A stretch of 64,000 bases of DNA from Candidatus Bathyarchaeota archaeon (GTDB taxonomy: Archaea; Thermoproteota; Bathyarchaeia; Bathyarchaeales; Bathycorpusculaceae), in the NCBI GenBank assembly GCA_963772455.1, contig CAVYXJ010000007.1, positions 256,001-320,000 of the forward strand. The letters are read 5' to 3'. The notes below the pieces were generated by a model. It had not been told where the DNA came from. It made no database searches and worked only from the letters and a program-made list of their open reading frames with translations. The position numbers and the translations under genes are program-made. This document shows positions 1-15,742 of this stretch, in pieces; the stretch's first letter is position 1; every line of letters starts with the position of its first letter.

Positions 1-266
1 GCGTCAACGGCGCCTCGAGCATAAATTTTGCCTTCTTCTATTCGAAGCGGCAGGTGCCCAGCCACTGTGTCCATGTGACCGCATAACAAGATAACGGGCT
101 CGCCATCGCCCACGACGCCAATAACATTGCCAATGGCGTCCTTGCCGACTTCAAAACCCATCTTTTTCATTTCTGATTCTAAGAAGTTGGCTGCGTCCCC
201 TTCTTTTCCTGAGGGGCTATAGATTCCTAGAAGGTTAGTTAGGAACCGTACTGCTTGCTCGCTCAT
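1..266 (-). CDS. lysK: [LysW]-lysine/ornithine hydrolase (M20 peptidase); N-terminal part only, gene runs off the window start
   Basis: Manual translation from ATG 266: MSEQAVRFLTNLLGIYSPSGKEG...LLCGHMDTV...YARGAVDA, which contains M20 motifs. Overlaps the end of lysJ. Confidence 0.9.
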   Translation of the reverse strand, partial: MSEQAVRFLTNLLGIYSPSGKEGDAANFLESEMKKMGFEVGKDAIGNVIGVVGDGEPVILLCGHMDTVAGHLPLRIEEGKIYARGAVD

Positions 267-5591: not shown

Positions 5592-6305
5592 TTACTTTCT
5601 CTGTTTCTCGATTTTCTCCACGCCATTGCCAGACCCCAAGTAGGCGATGTCGGTTAAGGCTATGAAAAATCCTGTTTCAACCACGCCGGGAACCATTTTC
5701 ACCTTAATATCAAGTTCAGCGGGATTCACTATTTCCCCAAAGTACGCGTCTATGACTGCATTACCGTTGTCGGTAATTATGGGACCCAATTTTCCTTTGC
5801 CTTCCCGCACCACTGGTTTTCCACCCATGGCGACGATGGTTGCTTTAACTATGGGAAGTGCGAAGGGCAAGACTTCTACGGGTACGAACTGGTTGTTTTC
5901 GCCCAGCAGTTTGGTTTTTTTGGGTTGATCGGCGATGATGACGTTGAGTTTGGAGGCTGAAGCAACGATTTTTTCTCTCGCCATCGCTGCACCACCGCCC
6001 TTAATGAGGAACAATTCGGGAGTTAATTGATCTGCGCCGTCTATGGTTACATCGATTACCGGATGCTCATCTAATGTTGTGATGGGGATGCCGCATTCAA
6101 CTGCCAGCAGGAATGCTTGGTAAGAAGTTGGGATACCCATGATGCTGATTTTTTCTTTTTTGATACGCTCGCCAAGTGCTTCGATTGCAAATGCGGCTGT
6201 GCTTCCACTGCCTAAACCTACAATGAAGCCGTCTTTAACGTGTTTAACTGCTTCTAAAGCGGCGTTTTGTTTTGCCTGTTGAATTGGATCAAGGTTAGCT
6301 TTCAA
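5592..6305 (-). CDS. rpiA: Ribose-5-phosphate isomerase A
   Basis: GLGSGST, DGADQ, KGGGAA, VPGVVETG. Confidence 0.95.
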   Translation of the reverse strand: MKANLDPIQQAKQNAALEAVKHVKDGFIVGLGSGSTAAFAIEALGERIKKEKISIMGIPTSYQAFLLAVECGIPITTLDEHPVIDVTIDGADQLTPELFLIKGGGAAMAREKIVASASKLNVIIADQPKKTKLLGENNQFVPVEVLPFALPIVKATIVAMGGKPVVREGKGKLGPIITDNGNAVIDAYFGEIVNPAELDIKVKMVPGVVETGFFIALTDIAYLGSGNGVEKIEKQRK

Positions 6306-7922: not shown

Positions 7923-8159
7923 ATGACTGTGGTTAAGTTGTCCCGTGTTAGAGTTAAACATAAAGGCCAAGTCACAATTCCCCAAGAAATGCGAAACAAA
8001 CTCGGCATAGAAGAAGGCACAATCTTAGACATCAAAGACCAAGATGGCACAATTATACTCAAACCCCTACCCCGCCTAGAAGCCGGGGAGCCAATTGGCG
8101 AAGTAGAATTTAAAAAAATCCTCGCTGAACTTGAAGAGCGTCGGAGAAACTGGCGTTGA
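7923..8159 (+). CDS. AbrB/MazE/SpoVT-family antitoxin
   Basis: KGQVTIPQEMRNKLGIEEG motif; 4-nt overlap with the PIN gene. Confidence 0.88.
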   Translation: MTVVKLSRVRVKHKGQVTIPQEMRNKLGIEEGTILDIKDQDGTIILKPLPRLEAGEPIGEVEFKKILAELEERRRNWR

Positions 8160-8554
8160 CCGGCGTCGCTGACACCCGAATCTTGTTTTTCATGGAAGTT
8201 CCAGCCACCCCCGAAATGGGAAGAAAAACCAGAGACTTTTTCGAAAAAGAACTCAGAGAAAATCTCTTGGTTCCCACTGTTGTCTTGGCCGAGTTCATTG
8301 AAATCGCAGGGGCAAGAATTGGCGAAGAAGCAGCAAAAACGCGGATACGTGTCCTAAAAGAGCGTGGTATGCAAATCATGCAATTCGACGAACGACACGC
8401 CATGAAAACGGGAAGTCTATTACTTTCAAACCGAAAAGTGCCCCTTGCTGACGCCATAATCGCCTCATATGTAAAAACCGGTGAAGCCGACTACGTCGTA
8501 ACCGACGATCCTCACTTCAAAACGTTAAACGTTAAAACAAAATGGATACCATAA
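8156..8554 (+). CDS. vapC: PIN-domain (VapC) toxin
   Basis: Acidic PIN motifs VADT, VLAE, LADAIIA, VTDDPHF. Confidence 0.88.
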   Translation: MTGVADTRILFFMEVPATPEMGRKTRDFFEKELRENLLVPTVVLAEFIEIAGARIGEEAAKTRIRVLKERGMQIMQFDERHAMKTGSLLLSNRKVPLADAIIASYVKTGEADYVVTDDPHFKTLNVKTKWIP

Positions 8555-8723: not shown

Positions 8724-8733
8724 AAGTTTAAAT
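8724..8733 (+). promoter_or_regulatory. Putative TATA box for the 8760-12107 operon (leaderless spacing)
   Basis: AAGTTTAAAT about 30 nt upstream of ATG 8760. Confidence 0.4.
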
Positions 8734-8759: not shown

Positions 8760-9128
8760 ATGAGAATCTTACCTATCCTCGGCGGCATCGCAGCAACGAT
8801 TCTATTCTTCTTCGCAGTTATCTTTGCGTTAGCCTCTTCCTACGTTGGACTTACCGCTCAAGCTGCACAATCCAGAGTTTTAACCAGCGCAATTTTATTC
8901 ATTGTTGGTTTAGCCGTGATTGTAGGTGTTTACTACGTGTCCCGTAAACCCAAAACGGTTATTCAGCAACTTGAAATCTCTGGGCAAATGAAGGCAGCAC
9001 AGATCAAATGTCCCAATTGTGGCGGTAGCATAGATGCAAACCAAATCAAAATCGTGTCTGGTGTGCCATATATTAAATGCCCGTACTGCGGCACCACTTT
9101 TGAGGTTACTGAGGAACCAAAATGGTAA
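8760..9128 (+). CDS. Two-TM membrane protein with a C-terminal zinc ribbon
   Basis: Two hydrophobic helices, CPNC...CPYC; stop overlaps the next ATG (ATGGTAA). Confidence 0.8.
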   Translation: MRILPILGGIAATILFFFAVIFALASSYVGLTAQAAQSRVLTSAILFIVGLAVIVGVYYVSRKPKTVIQQLEISGQMKAAQIKCPNCGGSIDANQIKIVSGVPYIKCPYCGTTFEVTEEPKW

Positions 9129-10760
9129 ATTCCAAATTTCTTGTCCTTATTGCTCTGTTAACTTTTACAATGGCGTTTTCAGCTGCAAGCAACGTCAACG
9201 CTCAAAACTTGGTTTACAGCGTAGACCATGAGTGGGCGCAAATCTTCATCAACCAAGACGGCACAATCGACGTAACCTACAACATCTCCGTAACCGTCAC
9301 TCAGGGAAGTATGGGTGGATTCTATGTTGGACAACCAAACCGCGACTTTAGCATTGGCGAAGCTAGAGACCAAAACGGCAACTCACTCACAGTGAATGAT
9401 GCTAGCAGTGGTGGAGACTACAGAGTAGACGTTCTCTTTAATCCACGCATACAATCGGGACAATCCATCTGGTTCCAAGTTACAACCAACGTTGCAGGAA
9501 TGATTAGCAACGACACTCAGAACCCTGGCAACTATGGCATGCAATTCATTCCCCAGTGGATATCCGATGTATCAATCAACGATGTTAGAGTGCAGATTGT
9601 TCTACCTCCAGGTGTCTCAACAGGCGATGTGAAGACAACTGAGAACTTCTACAACGGAACCTCAACTGTGAATAGCCAGTTGGCGGTTTATTGGGAAAAA
9701 CCAAGTATTCAGCCAAATGAACAGTTTAAGGTGGGTCGTATCTTTTCCATCCAGTTTTATGCCTAACTATGTTCCCAGCCAATCAGGCGGTGGAGGACTT
9801 GACTTTGGTGCTTTCGCCTCCATAATTGGAGTTTTGGGGTTCTTTTTTGCGATAGTCTTCTTGTTTTTAGTGATTAGAGCAGTTCGCAAAATCTCCTATA
9901 CAACGCCAAAGGTAGGTATGGAAACATTGGGTATAAAACGAGGTTTAACGGCTGTTGAAGCATCTTACCTAATGGATTTGAAGCCACCCCAAATAGTTAC
10001 AGAAATCCTCTATAGTCTGCTGCAGAAGCGAGCTGTTTGGGCGCAAGAAACCAAACCCTCACTTAGACTAAAAGTGTTGCCACCTTTTGAAAACAAAACA
10101 GGTCCAAAGGAATCCCCCTTGCGCTTTTATGAGATTGATTTCTTGAATTCCTTAAAAGTGGATGGTTCACTTGATGAAGAAAAACTTGCTCACATGATCA
10201 TGTTCCTAAGAGATACGGTTGAGCAGAAACTGCAAGGTTATAGTCGAAAAGACACGGTTGACTATTACCGAAAAATCGCCTCTCAAGCCTGGGCTCAAGT
10301 AGAGCAAGCCGGAACGGTCGAGTTGGCAGCGAATGCTTATGATGAGCAACTACTTTGGTTGCTACTTGACCCCAACCAACGGACAAGAACAGAAACCGTG
10401 TTTAGAGACAGAGTCATCCAGCCAAATCCCCTCTGGTTCTGGTGGTGGTACGGTTATACTACATACCATCCCCACCCCACTTATTCTCCAAACGTTAATG
10501 TTCCTTCGCAATCAGGTCCACCGCCACAGATTCCTGGAGCAGACTTTGCCAATAACATCGCCACCGCCGTAGAAGGCACATCGAACAACATAGTTGTTAA
10601 TCTAGAAAAATTCGCGAACGCCATCGTTCCGCCGCCGCCAAAAGTTTCCCATGAACCAGCACATAAAGGAGCGGATTGTGTTTGCGCTTGTCATGCATGT
10701 GCCTGCGCTTGCGCTTGCGTTTCATGCGCTTGTGCTTGTGCAGGTGGAGGAGGGCACTAA
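9122..10760 (+). pseudogene. Single-pass membrane protein (DUF2207-like ectodomain) with a C-terminal Cys-rich (CA)n tail; one gene split by a 1-nt frameshift near 9734-9737 (mutation or assembly error)
   Basis: ORF 9122-9766 (signal peptide plus beta-rich domain) and ORF 9717-10760 join as EQFKVG/VSFP if one base is removed, giving 545 aa ending CVCACHACACACACVSCACACAGGGGH. Confidence 0.7.
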
Positions 10761-12107
10761 ATGAGTTTCTTAAAGAAAGTTTTAGGCAAACAGAAGGTTC
10801 CGTCTGGACGTTACACCTACCGTGGAGAAGATAAGTTTGCAGGAATGTCTCTTCAGCTTCGAATTGAACAAAGCGGAAGAGGAGTCATGGTAATCAACGC
10901 TAATACAGTCCTGCACCTGAACCATACAGCAACTTCGTTTGCTTATTATTTCATGCAGGGTTTACCCGAAAAAGAAGTTTTGACTAAAATTCGCCGAATG
11001 TACAAAGTGAACGCTAAGACAGCTAAAGCTGATTACGAAAAGCTGGTCTACAAAATTAGTACACTCGCTCAAACCGAAAAAATCGACCCAGTCTCTTACC
11101 TCGAGATTGAGAAGGAAGAACCGTTCTCTTATCAGTATTCAGCCCCTTTGCGAATGGATTTAGCTTTAACGTTCAGGTGTCAAAATGATTGCGTTCACTG
11201 TTATGCGGGAGGACCACACGAAACACCAGAACTAACGACTGCGCAATGGAGAAGTGTTATTGATAAACTCAGCGAAATCGGCGTTTTCATACTAACTTTC
11301 ACCGGTGGTGAACCCACAATGCGAGATGATTTGCCTGAATTGTTACTTTATGCTCAAAACAAAGGTTTGGTTACTGGATTAATAAGCAATGGGCGAAAGC
11401 TCAAGGATAGAGCATATGTTAATGAGTTGGAGAAGTCAGGCTTAGATTTTGTTCAGGTAACTTTAGAGTCTCACAAACCGCAAGTCCATGATTCAATGAC
11501 ATGCCAGAAAGGGAGTTGGAAAGAAACCGTTGCTGGAATCCAAAATGCGGTTCAATCACAAATTTACGTTTCTACCAACACTACTCTGAGCAAAGTCAAT
11601 GAAGCTGACTTCCTTACTACAATCGATTACATCAAAGGACTTGGCGTAAATGCGTTTGGCTGCAATAGCCTCATCTATTCTGGCAAAGCACCCTCAGCAA
11701 GTGAAGAATTCGCATTAACATCAGAAGACTTGAACACTCTCTTGCCCAAAATACGAGATAAAGCTCAAATGATTGGACTCAAATTCCTTTGGTATACACC
11801 AACTCAGTACTGTCAATTTGACCCTGTTCAATTAGGATTAGGTGTAAAAACTTGCACTGCTGCAATGATAAACGCTTGCGTTGGACCCAACGGCGATGTT
11901 TACCCATGTCAAAGCTACTTTGAAAGCCTCGGAAACATCCTAACTGAACCATGGGACAAGATTTGGCACAACTCTTTGGCGGAAAAAATTCGTAAAAGAG
12001 AATACGTAGAAGAAAAATGCAAAGATTGCGAACAGTTACAGGTTTGCGGCGGAGGATGCCCTTTGGAACTGCAAAACAAAGAACACCAATGTGCGGTGAC
12101 AGGATAA
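10761..12107 (+). CDS. Radical SAM/SPASM-domain protein with an N-terminal PqqD/RRE-like domain (PqqE-like peptide maturase)
   Basis: CQNDCVHC (CxxxCxxC), TGGEP, SPASM C..GPNGDVYPC..CKDC..CGGGC, N-terminal LNHTA...helical RRE-like segment. Confidence 0.9.
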   Translation: MSFLKKVLGKQKVPSGRYTYRGEDKFAGMSLQLRIEQSGRGVMVINANTVLHLNHTATSFAYYFMQGLPEKEVLTKIRRMYKVNAKTAKADYEKLVYKISTLAQTEKIDPVSYLEIEKEEPFSYQYSAPLRMDLALTFRCQNDCVHCYAGGPHETPELTTAQWRSVIDKLSEIGVFILTFTGGEPTMRDDLPELLLYAQNKGLVTGLISNGRKLKDRAYVNELEKSGLDFVQVTLESHKPQVHDSMTCQKGSWKETVAGIQNAVQSQIYVSTNTTLSKVNEADFLTTIDYIKGLGVNAFGCNSLIYSGKAPSASEEFALTSEDLNTLLPKIRDKAQMIGLKFLWYTPTQYCQFDPVQLGLGVKTCTAAMINACVGPNGDVYPCQSYFESLGNILTEPWDKIWHNSLAEKIRKREYVEEKCKDCEQLQVCGGGCPLELQNKEHQCAVTG

Positions 12108-12172: not shown

Positions 12173-13417
12173 ATGGCTCAAACGCAAAAACCCAAGTTTG
12201 TAGTCTTCGACGTTGAAGGAGTTCTTATTCCAAAGAACCGCTTCATTTTTGAAGTGGGAAAAACCTTAGGGTTCGCTACACTGGTAAAGATGCTTTTTTT
12301 CGGTTTTCTCTACGAAGCAGGAATTTTAAAGTTAGAATCAGCATTAAAACATGTTTTCAGTAATATGAAAGGAGTTGAACTTGCAACTCTTCAGTGCATC
12401 TTTGACAAAATTCCTGCTACGCCACTTTTGCAAGGCATTTTTAGTCAACTAAAAACTAGGAATTGCAGGATTGCTCTGATAAGTTCAGGATTGCCAACGG
12501 TTGTCGTTAAAAAGTTTGCAGACTGCTTGGGTGCAGAATACGCCTTTGGCATCGATGTTGAAACCCAAGACGAAAAGTTGACGGGTCAAATAAGTGGTGA
12601 CGCCATTAAACCTGAAGGAAAAATGAAAATTTTATCTAAAATTTTAATTGCCGAAAACTTAGAGCTGAAGGATTGTGTGGTAGTGGCTGATGACCGGAAT
12701 AACCGTTGCATTTTTGCTCCTGAAGTCTTAAAAATTGGTTTTAACGCTGATTTTGTTATCCGAGTAAAAGCTGATAGAGTAATTAACGGTAAACTTTCAG
12801 GCATTATACCAGTCATTGACGGGAAAAAACATAAGGGTTCTTTTCCTTCGATTAACGATTTAGTAAGAGAAGACATTCACGCTGCAGGGTTTTTTATGCC
12901 TGTAATCGCTGGACTAATTACTGTTCCCGTAGTTGCAACCATAATCATTCTTATCGCCATTCTCTACACAATTTCTGAACTTAGACGTTTAGATGGACGC
13001 GAACTACGCTTCGTTTCAGCAATTACCCGCCATGCAGCATCCGAGTCTGAACTTTACGGTTTTGCTGCGGCACCTCTCTATTTTGCGTTTGGAATAGTGG
13101 CTACTCTGCTTCTTTTCCCGTTCCATGTAGCAGGAGCCGCAATTGCTATGTTTTGTTTTGGGGATAGTGCAGCTTCGCTTTTTGGCGGGTTGATTTCCAC
13201 TTCTTTACCTTTTAACAAGGGAAAAACTTGGGAAGGATCAATGGCAGGGTTTCTTTTCGCGTTTTTAGCTGGAACGTTCTTTGTTTCACCTTGGCTGGCT
13301 TTGGTTGGGGCAGCAATTGCCATGACTATTGAGGTTTTGCCGTTGCCACTAAACGATAACGTACTAATTCCAGTAATTACAGGTGCAGCCTTAACATTGA
13401 TAACTTCATTTGTCTAA
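12173..13417 (+). CDS. Fusion of a HAD-superfamily (SerB-like) domain and a phytol/dolichol kinase (CTP-dependent) membrane domain
   Basis: N-terminal FDVEGV, ISSG, VADDRNN; C-terminal GDSAASLFG, KTWEGS, NDN with multiple TMs. Confidence 0.75.
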   Translation: MAQTQKPKFVVFDVEGVLIPKNRFIFEVGKTLGFATLVKMLFFGFLYEAGILKLESALKHVFSNMKGVELATLQCIFDKIPATPLLQGIFSQLKTRNCRIALISSGLPTVVVKKFADCLGAEYAFGIDVETQDEKLTGQISGDAIKPEGKMKILSKILIAENLELKDCVVVADDRNNRCIFAPEVLKIGFNADFVIRVKADRVINGKLSGIIPVIDGKKHKGSFPSINDLVREDIHAAGFFMPVIAGLITVPVVATIIILIAILYTISELRRLDGRELRFVSAITRHAASESELYGFAAAPLYFAFGIVATLLLFPFHVAGAAIAMFCFGDSAASLFGGLISTSLPFNKGKTWEGSMAGFLFAFLAGTFFVSPWLALVGAAIAMTIEVLPLPLNDNVLIPVITGAALTLITSFV

Positions 13418-13737: not shown

Positions 13738-13992
13738 TTATTTTTTGTCTTGGGAAACGATGAGATCCTGCTTTTGTCGGTGACTCAACTTTTTTATGGC
13801 TTTTTCTCTCTTCATGGCGCTGCCTCTTGACCCGAAGACTTCTACGTAGGCTACTTTTTGGGGTGGATGCGATTTGGTGTATTTGGCGCCTTTTCCATTT
13901 TCATGTTGTCGTGTCCTTTGCTGCAAGTCATTTGTATATCCAGTGTAGAAGCTTCCATCCATACAAAGTAGTATGTAAACATAAAACGACAT
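13738..13992 (-). CDS. GIY-YIG nuclease (UPF0213/YhbQ-like)
   Basis: YVYIL..DGSFYTGYT..R..H..GAKYT..A.KRE..IK. Confidence 0.9.
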   Translation of the reverse strand: MSFYVYILLCMDGSFYTGYTNDLQQRTRQHENGKGAKYTKSHPPQKVAYVEVFGSRGSAMKREKAIKKLSHRQKQDLIVSQDKK

Positions 13993-15092: not shown

Positions 15093-15515
15093 TTAAAAAA
15101 TAGCTTTTATCGGAGTTGAGGCAAAATGTTTATCGTTTGAAATTATCCTTTGAGCACCTGTCCTCGTAGCTACTGATAGGTGGAGAGCATCTTCATAGTC
15201 CAGCTTGTAATTACTCATTAAGTCTATGGCGAAGGTGAAGTCTTTTTGTTCGAGAGGTTCAATTGTTAAACCTTTGATTTGTGTGATGGTTTTAATGACT
15301 TCCTCAGTAAAGGTTTTGTCTTTCAAATTTTTTCCTGTGAGACCCGCTATTATTATGAGAATTTCATAAAGGGATATGCTCGAGGTTAAGTATTCTCCTC
15401 GCTGAGAGTTTTCTATTTTTTTGATCCACTCATGCGAGGTTTTCCCAAATTTTGGGTGATTAGCAAGCCAATACACAAAAACATTGACGTCTATGTATCG
15501 TTTTTCTTGCGCCAT
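15093..15515 (-). CDS. vapC: PIN-domain (VapC) toxin
   Basis: YIDVNVF, LYE, DYEDALH, SNDKHF. Confidence 0.88.
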   Translation of the reverse strand: MAQEKRYIDVNVFVYWLANHPKFGKTSHEWIKKIENSQRGEYLTSSISLYEILIIIAGLTGKNLKDKTFTEEVIKTITQIKGLTIEPLEQKDFTFAIDLMSNYKLDYEDALHLSVATRTGAQRIISNDKHFASTPIKAIF

Positions 15516-15742
15516 GCTTCTTTTACCTCCACTACGAATTCATCGAGGTCTTCAGGCCATTGGGAAACTTTGAAGATTCCGAAATATTTGTCAGCAACAT
15601 GCTCAATTGGTTCAATTATGAGCGTTTTTCCTTTTGCCCTAATGTTTAGGTAGCTGCCTTCCTTTAGCTGGGCGGCTTTTCTTATTTGCTTAGGAATGAT
15701 TATCCTGCCTTTTGCATCGATTTTCACTGTGGTCTCGCTCAT
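15491..15742 (-). CDS. AbrB/MazE/SpoVT-family antitoxin
   Basis: IDAKGRIIIPKQIRK; overlaps vapC. Confidence 0.88.
   Translation of the reverse strand: MSETTVKIDAKGRIIIPKQIRKAAQLKEGSYLNIRAKGKTLIIEPIEHVADKYFGIFKVSQWPEDLDEFVVEVKEAWRKKNDT

What the first reader, a model, noticed from the sequence alone, without database searches (positions are those of the whole stretch)
8760..12107. Candidate new system: RRE-radical SAM/SPASM maturase paired with a membrane protein carrying a poly-(Cys-Ala) tail
Seen: three tightly coupled genes (ATGGTAA overlap; TAA 10760 directly followed by ATG 10761). They encode a zinc-ribbon membrane protein, a signal-peptide/ectodomain/single-TM protein ending in a 10-Cys tail, and a radical SAM enzyme with CxxxCxxC, a full SPASM motif and a PqqD/RRE-like N-terminus. 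Known: RRE+SPASM enzymes (PqqE, CteB, AlbA types) modify short neighbouring precursor peptides, often by Cys thioether crosslinks. I found no short precursor ORF nearby. Inference: the substrate is the cytoplasmic tail of a ~545-aa membrane protein, i.e. RiPP-style chemistry on a membrane-tethered protein. It could produce a crosslinked or metal-loaded tail, or a released peptide. I know of no characterised example.
Basis: partly seen in the sequence, partly recalled or inferred. Interest (0 to 1): 0.9.

Follow-up and report, generated by a model that had tools for sequence, protein, structure and literature searches.

The report
Radical SAM enzyme, Cys-Ala-tailed membrane protein
A three-gene module found in many oxygen-avoiding archaea and bacteria pairs a radical-chemistry enzyme with a membrane protein whose tail is a nearly invariant run of alternating cysteines and alanines; the enzyme probably modifies that tail, I found no study of it, and in this genome the membrane-protein gene carries a one-base frameshift.

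Summary
The three abutting genes exist as described, with one error. The "~545-aa" tail protein is split in this window by a one-base insertion at 9737. Relatives are intact at 539-547 aa (111 of 120 listed). The enzyme is a radical SAM/SPASM protein with a PqqD/RRE-type N-terminus. This rests on an AlphaFold model (pLDDT 91.8), on best PDB matches SkfB, SuiB and CteB, and on Pfam PqqD hits in 41 of 65 relatives, though not in the window copy. The tail is disordered, predicted cytoplasmic and under strong protein-level selection: 43 loci share the same last 17 residues with 43 different DNA strings. I picked 76 genomic loci by tail motif alone. Of these, 71 carry this enzyme family next to the tail gene and 64 carry the zinc-ribbon protein. 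They span Bathyarchaeia, Chloroflexota, Methanomassiliicoccales, Asgard archaea, Planctomycetota and others. Three well-flanked loci lack the enzyme. No curated family or paper covers the module. Modification of protein substrates by RRE-radical SAM enzymes has precedents (QhpD/QhpC, CrpC/CrpA). I therefore call this a new variant of a known kind. The chemistry is unknown; thioether cross-links are my best guess. Enzyme-tail binding could not be assessed.

The parts
8727..8733 (+). TTTAAAT, a possible archaeal TATA box about 30 nt before the first ATG (would give a leaderless operon mRNA)
   Evidence: Read directly from the sequence. Inference only; no tool here scans for archaeal promoters.
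8760..9128 (+). Gene 1: small membrane protein (122 aa) with two TM helices and a cytoplasmic C4 zinc ribbon
   Evidence: ORF. Hydrophobic windows start at residues 1-18 and 35-45. Pfam and NCBIfam zinc-ribbon matches are sub-threshold. A homologue lies upstream in 64 of 76 related loci. 62 of 62 extracted homologues keep two or more CxxC motifs, and K+R is enriched after TM2.
9122..9736 (+). Gene 2, 5' part: signal peptide or N-terminal helix plus beta-sandwich ectodomain (remote DUF2207-N)
   Evidence: ORF 9122-9766. Pfam DUF2207 E 5.7e-4, 20.6 bits against a cut-off of 24.4. It aligns with residues 1-208 of intact homologues. The AlphaFold model of homologue P0122 has strands 31-209 at pLDDT above 90.
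9737..9737 (+). One-base insertion (C) that frameshifts gene 2 in this window
   Evidence: DNA alignment with L001, L013, L002 and L004: only the window has this base. The two ORFs are in different frames. 111 of 120 listed homologues are 539-547 aa.
9738..10760 (+). Gene 2, 3' part: TM helix (about 9807-9887), cytoplasmic helical domain, conserved helical segment, disordered tail
   Evidence: Frame of ORF 9717-10760. Alignment with intact homologues resumes at VSFPSS. In the P0122 model the TM is 229-254, the helical domain 277-441, helices 472-501, and residues 508-545 have pLDDT below 50. K+R per 15 aa is 3.8 after the TM and 1.05 before it, in 40 family members.
10533..10631 (+). Conserved segment PGADFANN...FANAIVP just upstream of the tail; candidate built-in 'leader' for the RRE
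   Evidence: Conserved as PGxDFAxxxVxxVxxxSxxxVxxxxxFT across 74 C-termini. Predicted helices 472-490 and 494-501. The leader role is inference.
10677..10757 (+). Poly-(Cys-Ala) tail, 27 aa with 10 Cys, ending GGGGH; candidate core/substrate
   Evidence: Sequence. The tail is nearly invariant in homologues. Synonymous codons vary freely while the residues stay fixed. 917 of 1175 gaps between consecutive Cys are a single Ala.
10761..12107 (+). Gene 3: RRE-radical SAM-SPASM enzyme (448 aa). RRE is about 10806-11072, CxxxCxxC 11178-11201, SPASM cysteines 11811-12059
   Evidence: Pfam Radical_SAM and SPASM. AlphaFold pLDDT 91.8, with N-terminal strands 16-53 and helices 55-104. Foldseek best hits are SkfB, SuiB and CteB over 432-471 columns. 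PqqD is found in 41 of 65 relatives. C140/144/147/365/383/420/423/429/433 are invariant in 65 of 65 and C351 in 62 of 65.

Best explanation
This is one copy of a conserved three-gene membrane module of anaerobic archaea and bacteria. Gene 2 encodes a single-pass membrane protein. It has an outside beta-sandwich domain, one TM helix, a cytoplasmic helical domain, a conserved helical segment, a Ser/Gly/Pro linker, and a disordered C-terminal run of alternating Cys and Ala ending GGG-R/H. Gene 3 encodes a cytoplasmic RRE-radical SAM-SPASM enzyme. I propose that its RRE docks on the conserved segment upstream of the tail, which would act as a built-in leader. The enzyme would then use 5'-deoxyadenosyl radical chemistry on the tail while the tail is still attached to the membrane protein. 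The most likely product is a set of Cys-sulfur-to-carbon thioether cross-links to neighbouring Ala, of the sactionine or ranthionine type. Gene 1, the zinc-ribbon membrane protein, would be a third subunit or helper. Shown here: the gene architecture, the domain folds, the conservation and the co-occurrence. Inferred: that the tail is the substrate, which part the RRE recognises, and the chemistry. In this window gene 2 carries a one-base insertion, which is either an assembly error or a recent inactivation.
For: Co-occurrence. Among 76 loci selected by tail motif and tail-protein homology alone, the enzyme family is adjacent in 71: 62 start -3 to 374 nt after the tail gene's stop, 8 lie upstream on the same strand, and L074 lies directly upstream. 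The zinc-ribbon gene is present in 64 of 76. The link survives a change of gene order. In the enzyme tree, one clade with 100/100 support joins Planctomycetota, Chloroflexota and Myxococcota-type loci that share the same order and the same tail variant.

Enzyme type. CxxxCxxC, SPASM and seven conserved auxiliary Cys are present. The N-terminal domain has strands followed by three helices. The best structural matches are the RRE-bearing peptide maturases SkfB, SuiB and CteB. PqqD is found in 41 of 65 relatives.

Substrate-like tail. It is disordered in the model (pLDDT below 50 for residues 508-545) and lies on the cytoplasmic side by the positive-inside rule. Both the Cys and the Ala positions are invariant. 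In 43 loci the last 17 residues are identical while all 43 DNA strings differ.

No competing precursor. No short Cys-rich ORF lies nearby. The 18 'shorter' database hits I mapped onto P0122 are all pieces of the same gene.

Precedent. CrpC (RRE + SPASM) installs thioethers on the protein CrpA, and QhpD does so on QhpC (PMC13692751).
Against: There is no direct evidence of modification. L018, L019 and L075 have 1.7-8.7 kb upstream and 4.3-7.9 kb downstream of an identical tail and zinc-ribbon gene, yet no radical SAM gene. Profile scores place the catalytic core nearest PqqE, NirJ2, AhbD and MftC rather than the sactisynthase models: SkfB scores 82.5 bits against a cut-off of 300, and AlbA 69 against 850. 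The sequence therefore does not point to thioether chemistry specifically. Known thioether acceptors in protein substrates are Asp, Glu or Gln after CxxD/Q-type motifs, and these are absent from a Cys/Ala/Gly tail. The window's own N-terminus gives no Pfam PqqD hit. The reverse co-occurrence, enzyme clade to tail protein, was not tested. Gene 2 is broken in this window.
Confidence: 0.55

Rival explanations
1. The tail is a metal or iron-sulfur binding site, or a redox or metal sensor, and is not a substrate. The radical SAM enzyme acts on something else, such as a lipid, a cofactor or the zinc-ribbon protein. It is co-encoded because it works at or with this membrane complex.
For: Runs of Cys-x-Cys are typical metal ligands (general knowledge). 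The enzyme's core scores best against cofactor-modifying families, NirJ2 at 149.9 bits and AhbD at 131 bits. Three loci keep the tail without an adjacent enzyme. The CrpA authors also suspect metal binding for their Cys-rich protein.
Against: The enzyme carries an RRE, a peptide-recognition domain. The Ala positions are as invariant as the Cys positions, which simple metal ligation does not require. All scores against the cofactor families are far below their cut-offs of 500-650 bits.
Confidence: 0.17
2. The enzyme is an epimerase that inverts every second residue. This would give an alternating D/L stretch that folds as a beta-helix, as in gramicidin or the polytheonamides (recalled), and could insert into the membrane.
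For: The strict two-residue periodicity and the hydrophobic 14-21-residue run fit this idea. The radical SAM epimerase EpeE is among the Foldseek matches, at E about 1e-10. A class I methyltransferase accompanies the module in 41 of 76 loci; polytheonamide maturation also uses methyltransferases (recalled).
Against: EpeE ranks well below SkfB, SuiB and CteB. Cys-rich cores with SPASM enzymes have so far given thioethers.
Confidence: 0.08
3. The module is a true RiPP pathway. The tail is modified, cut off and released or exported as a small Cys-rich peptide, and the membrane protein is only a carrier.
For: The layout resembles leader, linker, then core. A conserved TNPxP motif and a Ser/Gly linker precede the core and could be a cleavage region.
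Against: No protease or exporter is conserved with the module. Clustering of all ORFs in the 76 loci found only the trio, a methyltransferase (about 40 loci) and lineage-specific genes. The whole 545-aa protein is strongly conserved, at 77-92% identity in 119 listed relatives.
Confidence: 0.07
4. The enzyme oxidises Cys to formylglycine, as anaerobic sulfatase-maturating enzymes do, or performs some other single-residue change.
For: anSME is a SPASM enzyme that acts on whole proteins, and it appears among the sequence and fold matches.
Against: anSME matches are weak (sequence E 9.9e-4). anSMEs lack an RRE, and their CxPxR/CxAxR motif (recalled) is not in the tail. No sulfatase is nearby.
Confidence: 0.04
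5. The adjacency has no functional meaning and reflects chance or mere synteny.
For: The loci are not phylogenetically independent; about 45 of the 76 are Chloroflexota.
Against: Adjacency holds in 71 of 76 loci from both domains and many phyla, and it survives gene-order change. The neighbouring HAD gene, by contrast, is kept in only 5 close relatives (L001-L004, L013).
Confidence: 0.02

Closest known systems
CrpC/CrpA of Methanococcus voltae (RRE-radical SAM-SPASM ranthionine synthase acting on a Cys-rich protein; PMC13692751)
   Same: An RRE + radical SAM + seven-Cys SPASM enzyme is encoded beside a large protein whose C-terminal region carries repeated Cys motifs. The substrate is a protein rather than a short peptide. 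A helper protein is encoded in the cluster.
   Different: CrpA is a soluble 28.8-kDa protein with ten 17-residue CxxQ/D repeats and an N-terminal leader-like region. Here the candidate core is a single 14-21-residue (Cys-Ala)n run at the extreme C-terminus of a single-pass membrane protein, with the candidate recognition segment just upstream. CrpC belongs to TIGR04463. That model was not among the 25 best NCBIfam matches shown for the window enzyme.
QhpD/QhpC (quinohemoprotein amine dehydrogenase maturation)
   Same: A radical SAM/SPASM enzyme with an RRE makes Cys thioethers in a protein subunit (as described in PMC13692751).
   Different: The acceptors are Asp and Glu. The substrate is a small periplasmic enzyme subunit. 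No dehydrogenase genes occur here.
Sactipeptide and ranthipeptide maturases: SkfB, AlbA, CteB (SCIFF)
   Same: They are the best structural matches over the whole length, including the N-terminal domain. SkfB is the best PDB sequence hit, at E 1.2e-16. Their substrates are Cys-rich.
   Different: Scores are far below the family cut-offs: SkfB 82.5/300, StsB 76.9/625, AlbA 69/850. Their substrates are short free precursor peptides. None exists here.
PqqE/PqqD and MftC (SPASM enzymes with an RRE partner that make C-C links or decarboxylate)
   Same: PqqE is the NCBIfam model matched by most family members at E<=1e-30 (58 of 65). The PqqD domain is fused at the N-terminus.
   Different: The window scores 115 bits against a cut-off of 381, and 112 against 265 for MftC. 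There is no PqqA- or MftA-like peptide and no Glu/Tyr or C-terminal Val-Tyr target.
DUF2207 membrane proteins (Pfam PF09972/PF20990)
   Same: The layout is similar: signal peptide, outside beta domain, TM, cytoplasmic region. The nearest named ESM Atlas clusters are DUF2207.
   Different: Only 2 of 40 family members reach E<=0.01 for either Pfam model, and the window piece is below the cut-off. The poly-(Cys-Ala) tail is not a described feature. One S. mutans study exists, seen as search listing only.

Membership tests
Radical SAM superfamily | CxxxCxxC cluster motif and Radical_SAM fold | tested here: met
   C140/C144/C147 are invariant in 65 of 65. Pfam PF04055 E 4.3e-23. AlphaFold model with pLDDT 91.8.
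SPASM subgroup | C-terminal SPASM domain with 7-8 Cys for two auxiliary clusters | tested here: met
   Pfam PF13186 E 4.8e-11. C351 (62 of 65) and C365, C383, C420, C423, C429, C433 (65 of 65) are conserved. An eighth Cys (C444) occurs in only 21 of 65. Cluster binding itself is not testable here.
RRE (PqqD-like) containing peptide maturases | N-terminal winged-helix domain of three strands plus three helices, homologous to PqqD | tested here: met
   Strands 30-35, 41-45 and 49-53 (plus 16-21), then helices 55-65, 70-81 and 85-104. Full-length Foldseek matches to SkfB, SuiB and CteB. Pfam PqqD in 41 of 65 relatives, best E 3.9e-9. The window copy itself has no hit at E<=0.1.
RRE-containing peptide maturases | RRE binds the leader of its substrate | not testable with these tools
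   The one complex prediction gave no verdict. A binding assay is needed.
Sactisynthase/ranthisynthase equivalogs (SkfB, AlbA, StsB) | Score above the curated NCBIfam cut-off | tested here: not met
   SkfB 82.5 against 300, StsB 76.9 against 625, AlbA 69.2 against 850.
CrpC family (TIGR04463) | Score above the curated NCBIfam cut-off | tested here: inconclusive
   TIGR04463 is not among the 25 best matches shown out of 67 families for the window enzyme. Its own score was never displayed.
PqqE, MftC, NirJ, AhbD equivalogs | Score above the curated NCBIfam cut-off | tested here: not met
   NirJ2 149.9/500, AhbD 131.1/500, PqqE 115.4/381, MftC 112.4/265. Across 65 relatives the best E-value is 5.1e-45, about the same score range.
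RiPP pathway in the strict sense | Short precursor peptide (leader + core) that is processed and released | tested here: not met
   There is no short Cys-rich ORF beside the genes. The short database hits I mapped are fragments of the 545-aa gene. No conserved protease or exporter was found. Release itself was not tested.
DUF2207 (PF09972 / PF20990) | Pfam score above the gathering cut-off | tested here: inconclusive
   The window piece scores 20.6 bits against 24.4. 2 of 40 family members match at E<=0.01. Atlas neighbours are named DUF2207. This is a remote relative at best.
C-terminal sorting signals (sortase, exosortase or archaeosortase type) | Motif + TM helix + basic end on an exported domain, with a sorting enzyme encoded in the genome | tested here: not met
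   The tail follows a cytoplasmic domain, is only 14-21 residues of Cys/Ala/Gly, and no sortase-like gene recurs in the loci.

The most novel reading that the evidence does not exclude
The (Cys-Ala)n tail is converted by the radical SAM enzyme into a structure without precedent on a membrane protein. Candidates are a ladder of Cys-to-Ala thioethers, an alternating D/L beta-helix, or a covalently built metal-sulfur site. The module would then be a conserved housekeeping device of anaerobic archaea and bacteria rather than a natural-product pathway.
Probability: 0.3. Interest if true: 0.85.

Novelty: new variant of a known kind. Interest (0 to 1): 0.72.

Why it matters
RiPP-type radical SAM chemistry on whole proteins has very few studied cases. 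This module would add one that is membrane-tethered and present in both domains of life, in at least a dozen phylum-level groups by record title. Its candidate core is among the most conserved low-complexity motifs I have seen: identical residues carried by freely varying codons. Only 552 cluster representatives out of 1.84 billion match the tail protein. The family is therefore small, sharply defined and easy to model. A cultured carrier exists, Ornatilinea apprima P3M-1 (L048), so the prediction can be tested directly. The acceptor chemistry would be new whichever outcome holds, because the core offers only Cys, Ala, Gly and a few Val or Ser.

Tried and rejected
1. Complex prediction of the enzyme (alignment A3) with the last 100 residues of the tail protein (A4): no verdict, score 0.00 in both runs, controls not run. 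I do not use it either way.

2. Programmed frameshift at 9737: rejected. Four relatives lack the base and 111 of 120 listed homologues are whole. Broken copies in other assemblies break at other places (L021, L023 and L050).

3. Free-standing short precursors: the 'shorter' search with residues 461-545 found 431 hits. All 120 listed are 58-98% identical. The 18 I mapped are all pieces of the same gene.

4. The downstream HAD/SerB-like gene (12173-13417) as a fourth member: rejected. It is kept in only 5 close Bathyarchaeia loci (L001-L004, L013).

5. The tail as a DNA-level repeat artefact: rejected on codon evidence.

6. The tail as a second TM or sorting signal: rejected. The extra hydrophobic windows near residues 280-320 in 11 of 40 members align with a buried helix of the cytoplasmic domain.

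7. NCBIfam: no model for the tail protein and no equivalog for the enzyme.

8. Literature. No paper holds both 'DUF2207' and 'radical SAM'. No paper holds all of RiPP, archaea, radical SAM and Bathyarchaeia. The tail strings hit only DNA primers. Phrases for Cys-Ala repeats gave nothing relevant. A search for Haft's 2011 in-silico survey found only papers citing it, so I did not read it. The supplements of PMC13692751, which list other Cys-rich protein/radical SAM pairs, were not requested. By the tool's own description none are held for papers added after Aug 2026. They may list related archaeal clusters, although the paper's filter of at least 5% Cys would exclude this protein (about 1.8% Cys).


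Full report
WHAT IS IN THE WINDOW

On the + strand there are four ORFs between 8760 and 12107: 8760-9128 (122 aa), 9122-9766 (214 aa), 9717-10760 (347 aa) and 10761-12107 (448 aa). ATGGTAA lies at 9122-9128, and TAA 10758-10760 is followed at once by ATG 10761.

The 214-aa and 347-aa ORFs are in different frames. A DNA alignment with four relatives shows one extra base in the window, C at 9737. Relatives are whole: 111 of the 120 listed hits are 539-547 aa and 119 of them are 77-92% identical. The window's own database entry is a 333-aa truncated call. Broken copies in other assemblies break at other positions. This is therefore an assembly error or an isolated mutation, not a programmed shift. 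All statements about the "tail protein" below rest on the intact relatives and on the two window pieces.

THE THREE PROTEINS

Gene 1 encodes two hydrophobic helices followed by CPNCG...CPYCG. Pfam and NCBIfam give only sub-threshold zinc-ribbon matches. In 62 of 62 extracted homologues two or more CxxC motifs are kept, and basic residues cluster after the second helix. The ribbon is therefore predicted to be cytoplasmic.

Gene 2 was modelled from the intact homologue P0122 with 40 diverse relatives (mean pLDDT 80.6). The model shows:
- an N-terminal helix (2-26);
- a confident beta-sandwich (31-209);
- one TM helix (229-254);
- a confident helical domain (277-441);
- two helices (472-501);
- a tail (508-545) with pLDDT below 50.

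Basic residues are 3.8 per 15 aa after the TM and 1.05 before it, across 40 members. Extra hydrophobic windows near residues 280-320 in 11 members fall on a buried helix of the helical domain. The tail is thus predicted to be cytoplasmic, on the same side as the enzyme. Pfam sees DUF2207 only weakly: 20.6 bits against a cut-off of 24.4 for the window piece, and 2 of 40 relatives at E<=0.01. The outside domain resembles ribophorin I/Ost1 and the N-domain of M1 aminopeptidases at low TM-scores.

Gene 3 has Radical_SAM (136-291) and SPASM (365-424) domains. The cysteines C140/C144/C147 and C365, C383, C420, C423, C429 and C433 are invariant in 65 of 65 relatives. C351 is kept in 62 of 65, and an eighth Cys in only 21 of 65. 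No NCBIfam equivalog is reached. The best score is NirJ2 at 149.9 bits against a cut-off of 500. PqqE scores 115/381, MftC 112/265 and SkfB 82.5/300. Across the family PqqE is the most frequent match (58 of 65 at E<=1e-30).

The window's N-terminal 125 residues give no Pfam PqqD hit at E<=0.1, but 41 of 65 relatives do, with a best E of 3.9e-9. The AlphaFold model (pLDDT 91.8) shows strands followed by three helices. The best PDB matches over 432-471 columns are the RRE-bearing maturases SkfB, SuiB and CteB.

THE TAIL

The tail protein family is small: 552 representatives at E<=1e-3 among 1.84 billion. Of the best 150, 109 end in a poly-(Cys-Ala) run. From the tails printed, the other 41 are mostly fragments without a C-terminus or out-of-frame readings.

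There are three main forms:
- a 10-Cys form, as in the window (Bathyarchaeia and relatives);
- a 7-Cys form ending ...CACACACAGCACACAGGGR (most bacteria);
- forms with the Gly shifted or absent.

Among 182 tails, 917 of 1175 gaps between consecutive Cys are a single Ala. In 43 loci the last 17 residues are identical while all 43 DNA strings differ, with both Cys codons and all Ala, Gly and Arg codons in use. Selection therefore acts on the peptide and not on a DNA repeat.

Upstream of the tail lies a conserved PGxDFAxxxVxxVxxxSxxxVxxxxxFT...TNPxP segment, followed by a Ser/Gly linker. This is a leader-linker-core layout placed at the end of a large protein.

CO-OCCURRENCE

I scanned one genome per species for the tail motifs and confirmed hits by homology to the tail protein. 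This gave 76 loci. By record titles they come from:
- Bathyarchaeia and other Thermoproteota;
- Methanomassiliicoccales and other Thermoplasmatota;
- Hod- and Heimdallarchaeota;
- about 45 Chloroflexota;
- Planctomycetota, Myxococcota-type, Acidobacteriota, Aminicenantes, Hydrogenedentota, Fermentibacterota and others.

A homologue of the window's enzyme (31-85% identity, mostly full length) lies -3 to 374 nt downstream of the tail gene in 62 loci. It lies upstream on the same strand in 8, and directly upstream in L074. That makes 71 of 76.

Of the five loci without an enzyme:
- L055 ends 89 nt after the tail gene;
- L070 has only 524 nt upstream and carries the tail variant of the 'enzyme upstream' type;
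- L018, L019 and L075 are related high-GC bacteria with long flanks. These hold peptidases, a glycoside hydrolase and a glycosyltransferase instead.

The zinc-ribbon gene is found in 64 of 76 loci. Six of the 12 misses are at contig ends. The HAD gene that follows in the window is kept in only 5 close relatives (L001-L004, L013).

On the enzyme tree the tail variants cluster: 13 changes against a shuffled mean of 33.3. That measure is confounded by common descent. More telling is one clade with 100/100 support that unites Planctomycetota, Chloroflexota and Myxococcota-type loci. These share the same gene order and the same tail variant, so the cassette moves as a unit.

MECHANISM

The best-supported reading is that the enzyme modifies the tail in cis on the membrane protein. 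The enzyme has a peptide-recognition domain. The only conserved, disordered, peptide-like element in the module is the tail. No short precursor exists. The two genes stay together across domains.

Precedents for protein substrates exist. QhpD acts on QhpC, and CrpC acts on CrpA of M. voltae, a 2026 study in which an RRE-SPASM enzyme with a seven-Cys SPASM domain installs ranthionine links on a Cys-rich protein. Of that paper I read the abstract, the Introduction, one Results section and the Discussion.

I favour thioether cross-links because Cys-rich cores paired with SPASM enzymes have so far given these. The evidence for this particular chemistry is weak, however. Profile scores put the core nearer PqqE, NirJ, AhbD and MftC than the sactisynthases. 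The usual Asp/Glu/Gln acceptors are also absent. Epimerisation of alternate residues, metal-site formation without modification, release as a peptide, and formylglycine formation remain open. The complex prediction gave no verdict.

COMPARISON AND NOVELTY

The module works like an RRE-dependent radical SAM maturase system but fails the strict RiPP definition, since there is no short released precursor. It reaches no curated enzyme family. NCBIfam has no model for the tail protein. I found no paper on it. I did not see Haft's 2011 survey or the supplements of the CrpC paper. I rate it a new variant of a known kind: protein-directed RiPP-like maturation with a new, membrane-tethered substrate family, a new core, and a conserved zinc-ribbon partner.

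VERDICT

Confidence is about 0.9 that the trio is one functional module, 0.55 for the full best explanation, and roughly 0.3 that the product is a thioether. Interest is 0.72.

Noticed in passing
window 9737: A single extra base splits the tail-protein gene. The database entry for this genome is a 333-aa truncated protein (P0121). Whether this is a sequencing error or a real mutation is unknown.
   Followed up: partly
L014:8283-9059, L053:10877-11635(-), L061:2760-3542, L073:5583-6341(-), L076:10027-10794 and others: A class I SAM-dependent methyltransferase (~250 aa, Pfam Methyltransf_11, no NCBIfam equivalog) recurs in 41 of 76 related loci. It often lies directly beside the enzyme or the tail gene, in archaea and bacteria. 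It is absent from the Bathyarchaeia loci L001-L013 and from the whole 64-kb window. It may be an optional fourth component.
   Followed up: partly
L065:4745-6040 and L066:6582-7880: In loci with the order zinc-ribbon, enzyme..., tail gene, a second paralogue (432-433 aa) sits between them. It has an RRE-like N-terminus and SPASM cysteines but no CxxxCxxC motif, so it looks like a catalytically dead 'pseudo-radical SAM'.
   Followed up: partly
L018, L019, L075: Three related high-GC bacterial loci keep the zinc-ribbon gene and an identical tail but have no radical SAM gene within 1.7-8.7 kb. An M32 carboxypeptidase and a GH43-like gene lie upstream in L019 and L075. The rest of these genomes could not be searched.
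   Followed up: partly
homologue P0122 residues 31-209 (window 9122-9736 equivalent): The outside beta-sandwich domain's best PDB fold matches are ribophorin I/Ost1 of oligosaccharyltransferase and the N-domain of M1 aminopeptidases/LTA4 hydrolase. Foldseek E is 5e-11 to 1e-7 but TM-scores are only 0.25-0.34.
   Followed up: no
window 10676-10834 (+); P0331, P0389, P0447; L021: Out-of-frame readings of the (TGY GCN)n tail DNA give Leu/Arg/Cys-rich pseudo-proteins (CLRLRL...) that sit in public protein sets. Several assemblies are frameshifted in or near this gene.
   Followed up: no
window 7923-8554 (+) and 15093-15742 (-): There are two AbrB/MazE-type antitoxin plus PIN-domain pairs (VapBC-like), one immediately upstream of the module.
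   Followed up: no
window 12173-13417 (+): A HAD/SerB-like phosphatase domain is fused to a C-terminal multi-helix membrane region. It is syntenic with the module only in close Bathyarchaeia relatives.
   Followed up: no
window 13738-13992 (-) and 5592-6305 (-): A small GIY-YIG domain protein and ribose-5-phosphate isomerase A, both ordinary chromosomal neighbours.
   Followed up: no
L009 (labelled Nitrospirales) and L010 (labelled Nanoarchaeia): Both carry the 10-Cys Bathyarchaeia-type tail, and their enzymes nest inside a Bathyarchaeia clade with 100/99 support. This suggests mis-binned contigs or recent transfer.
   Followed up: no
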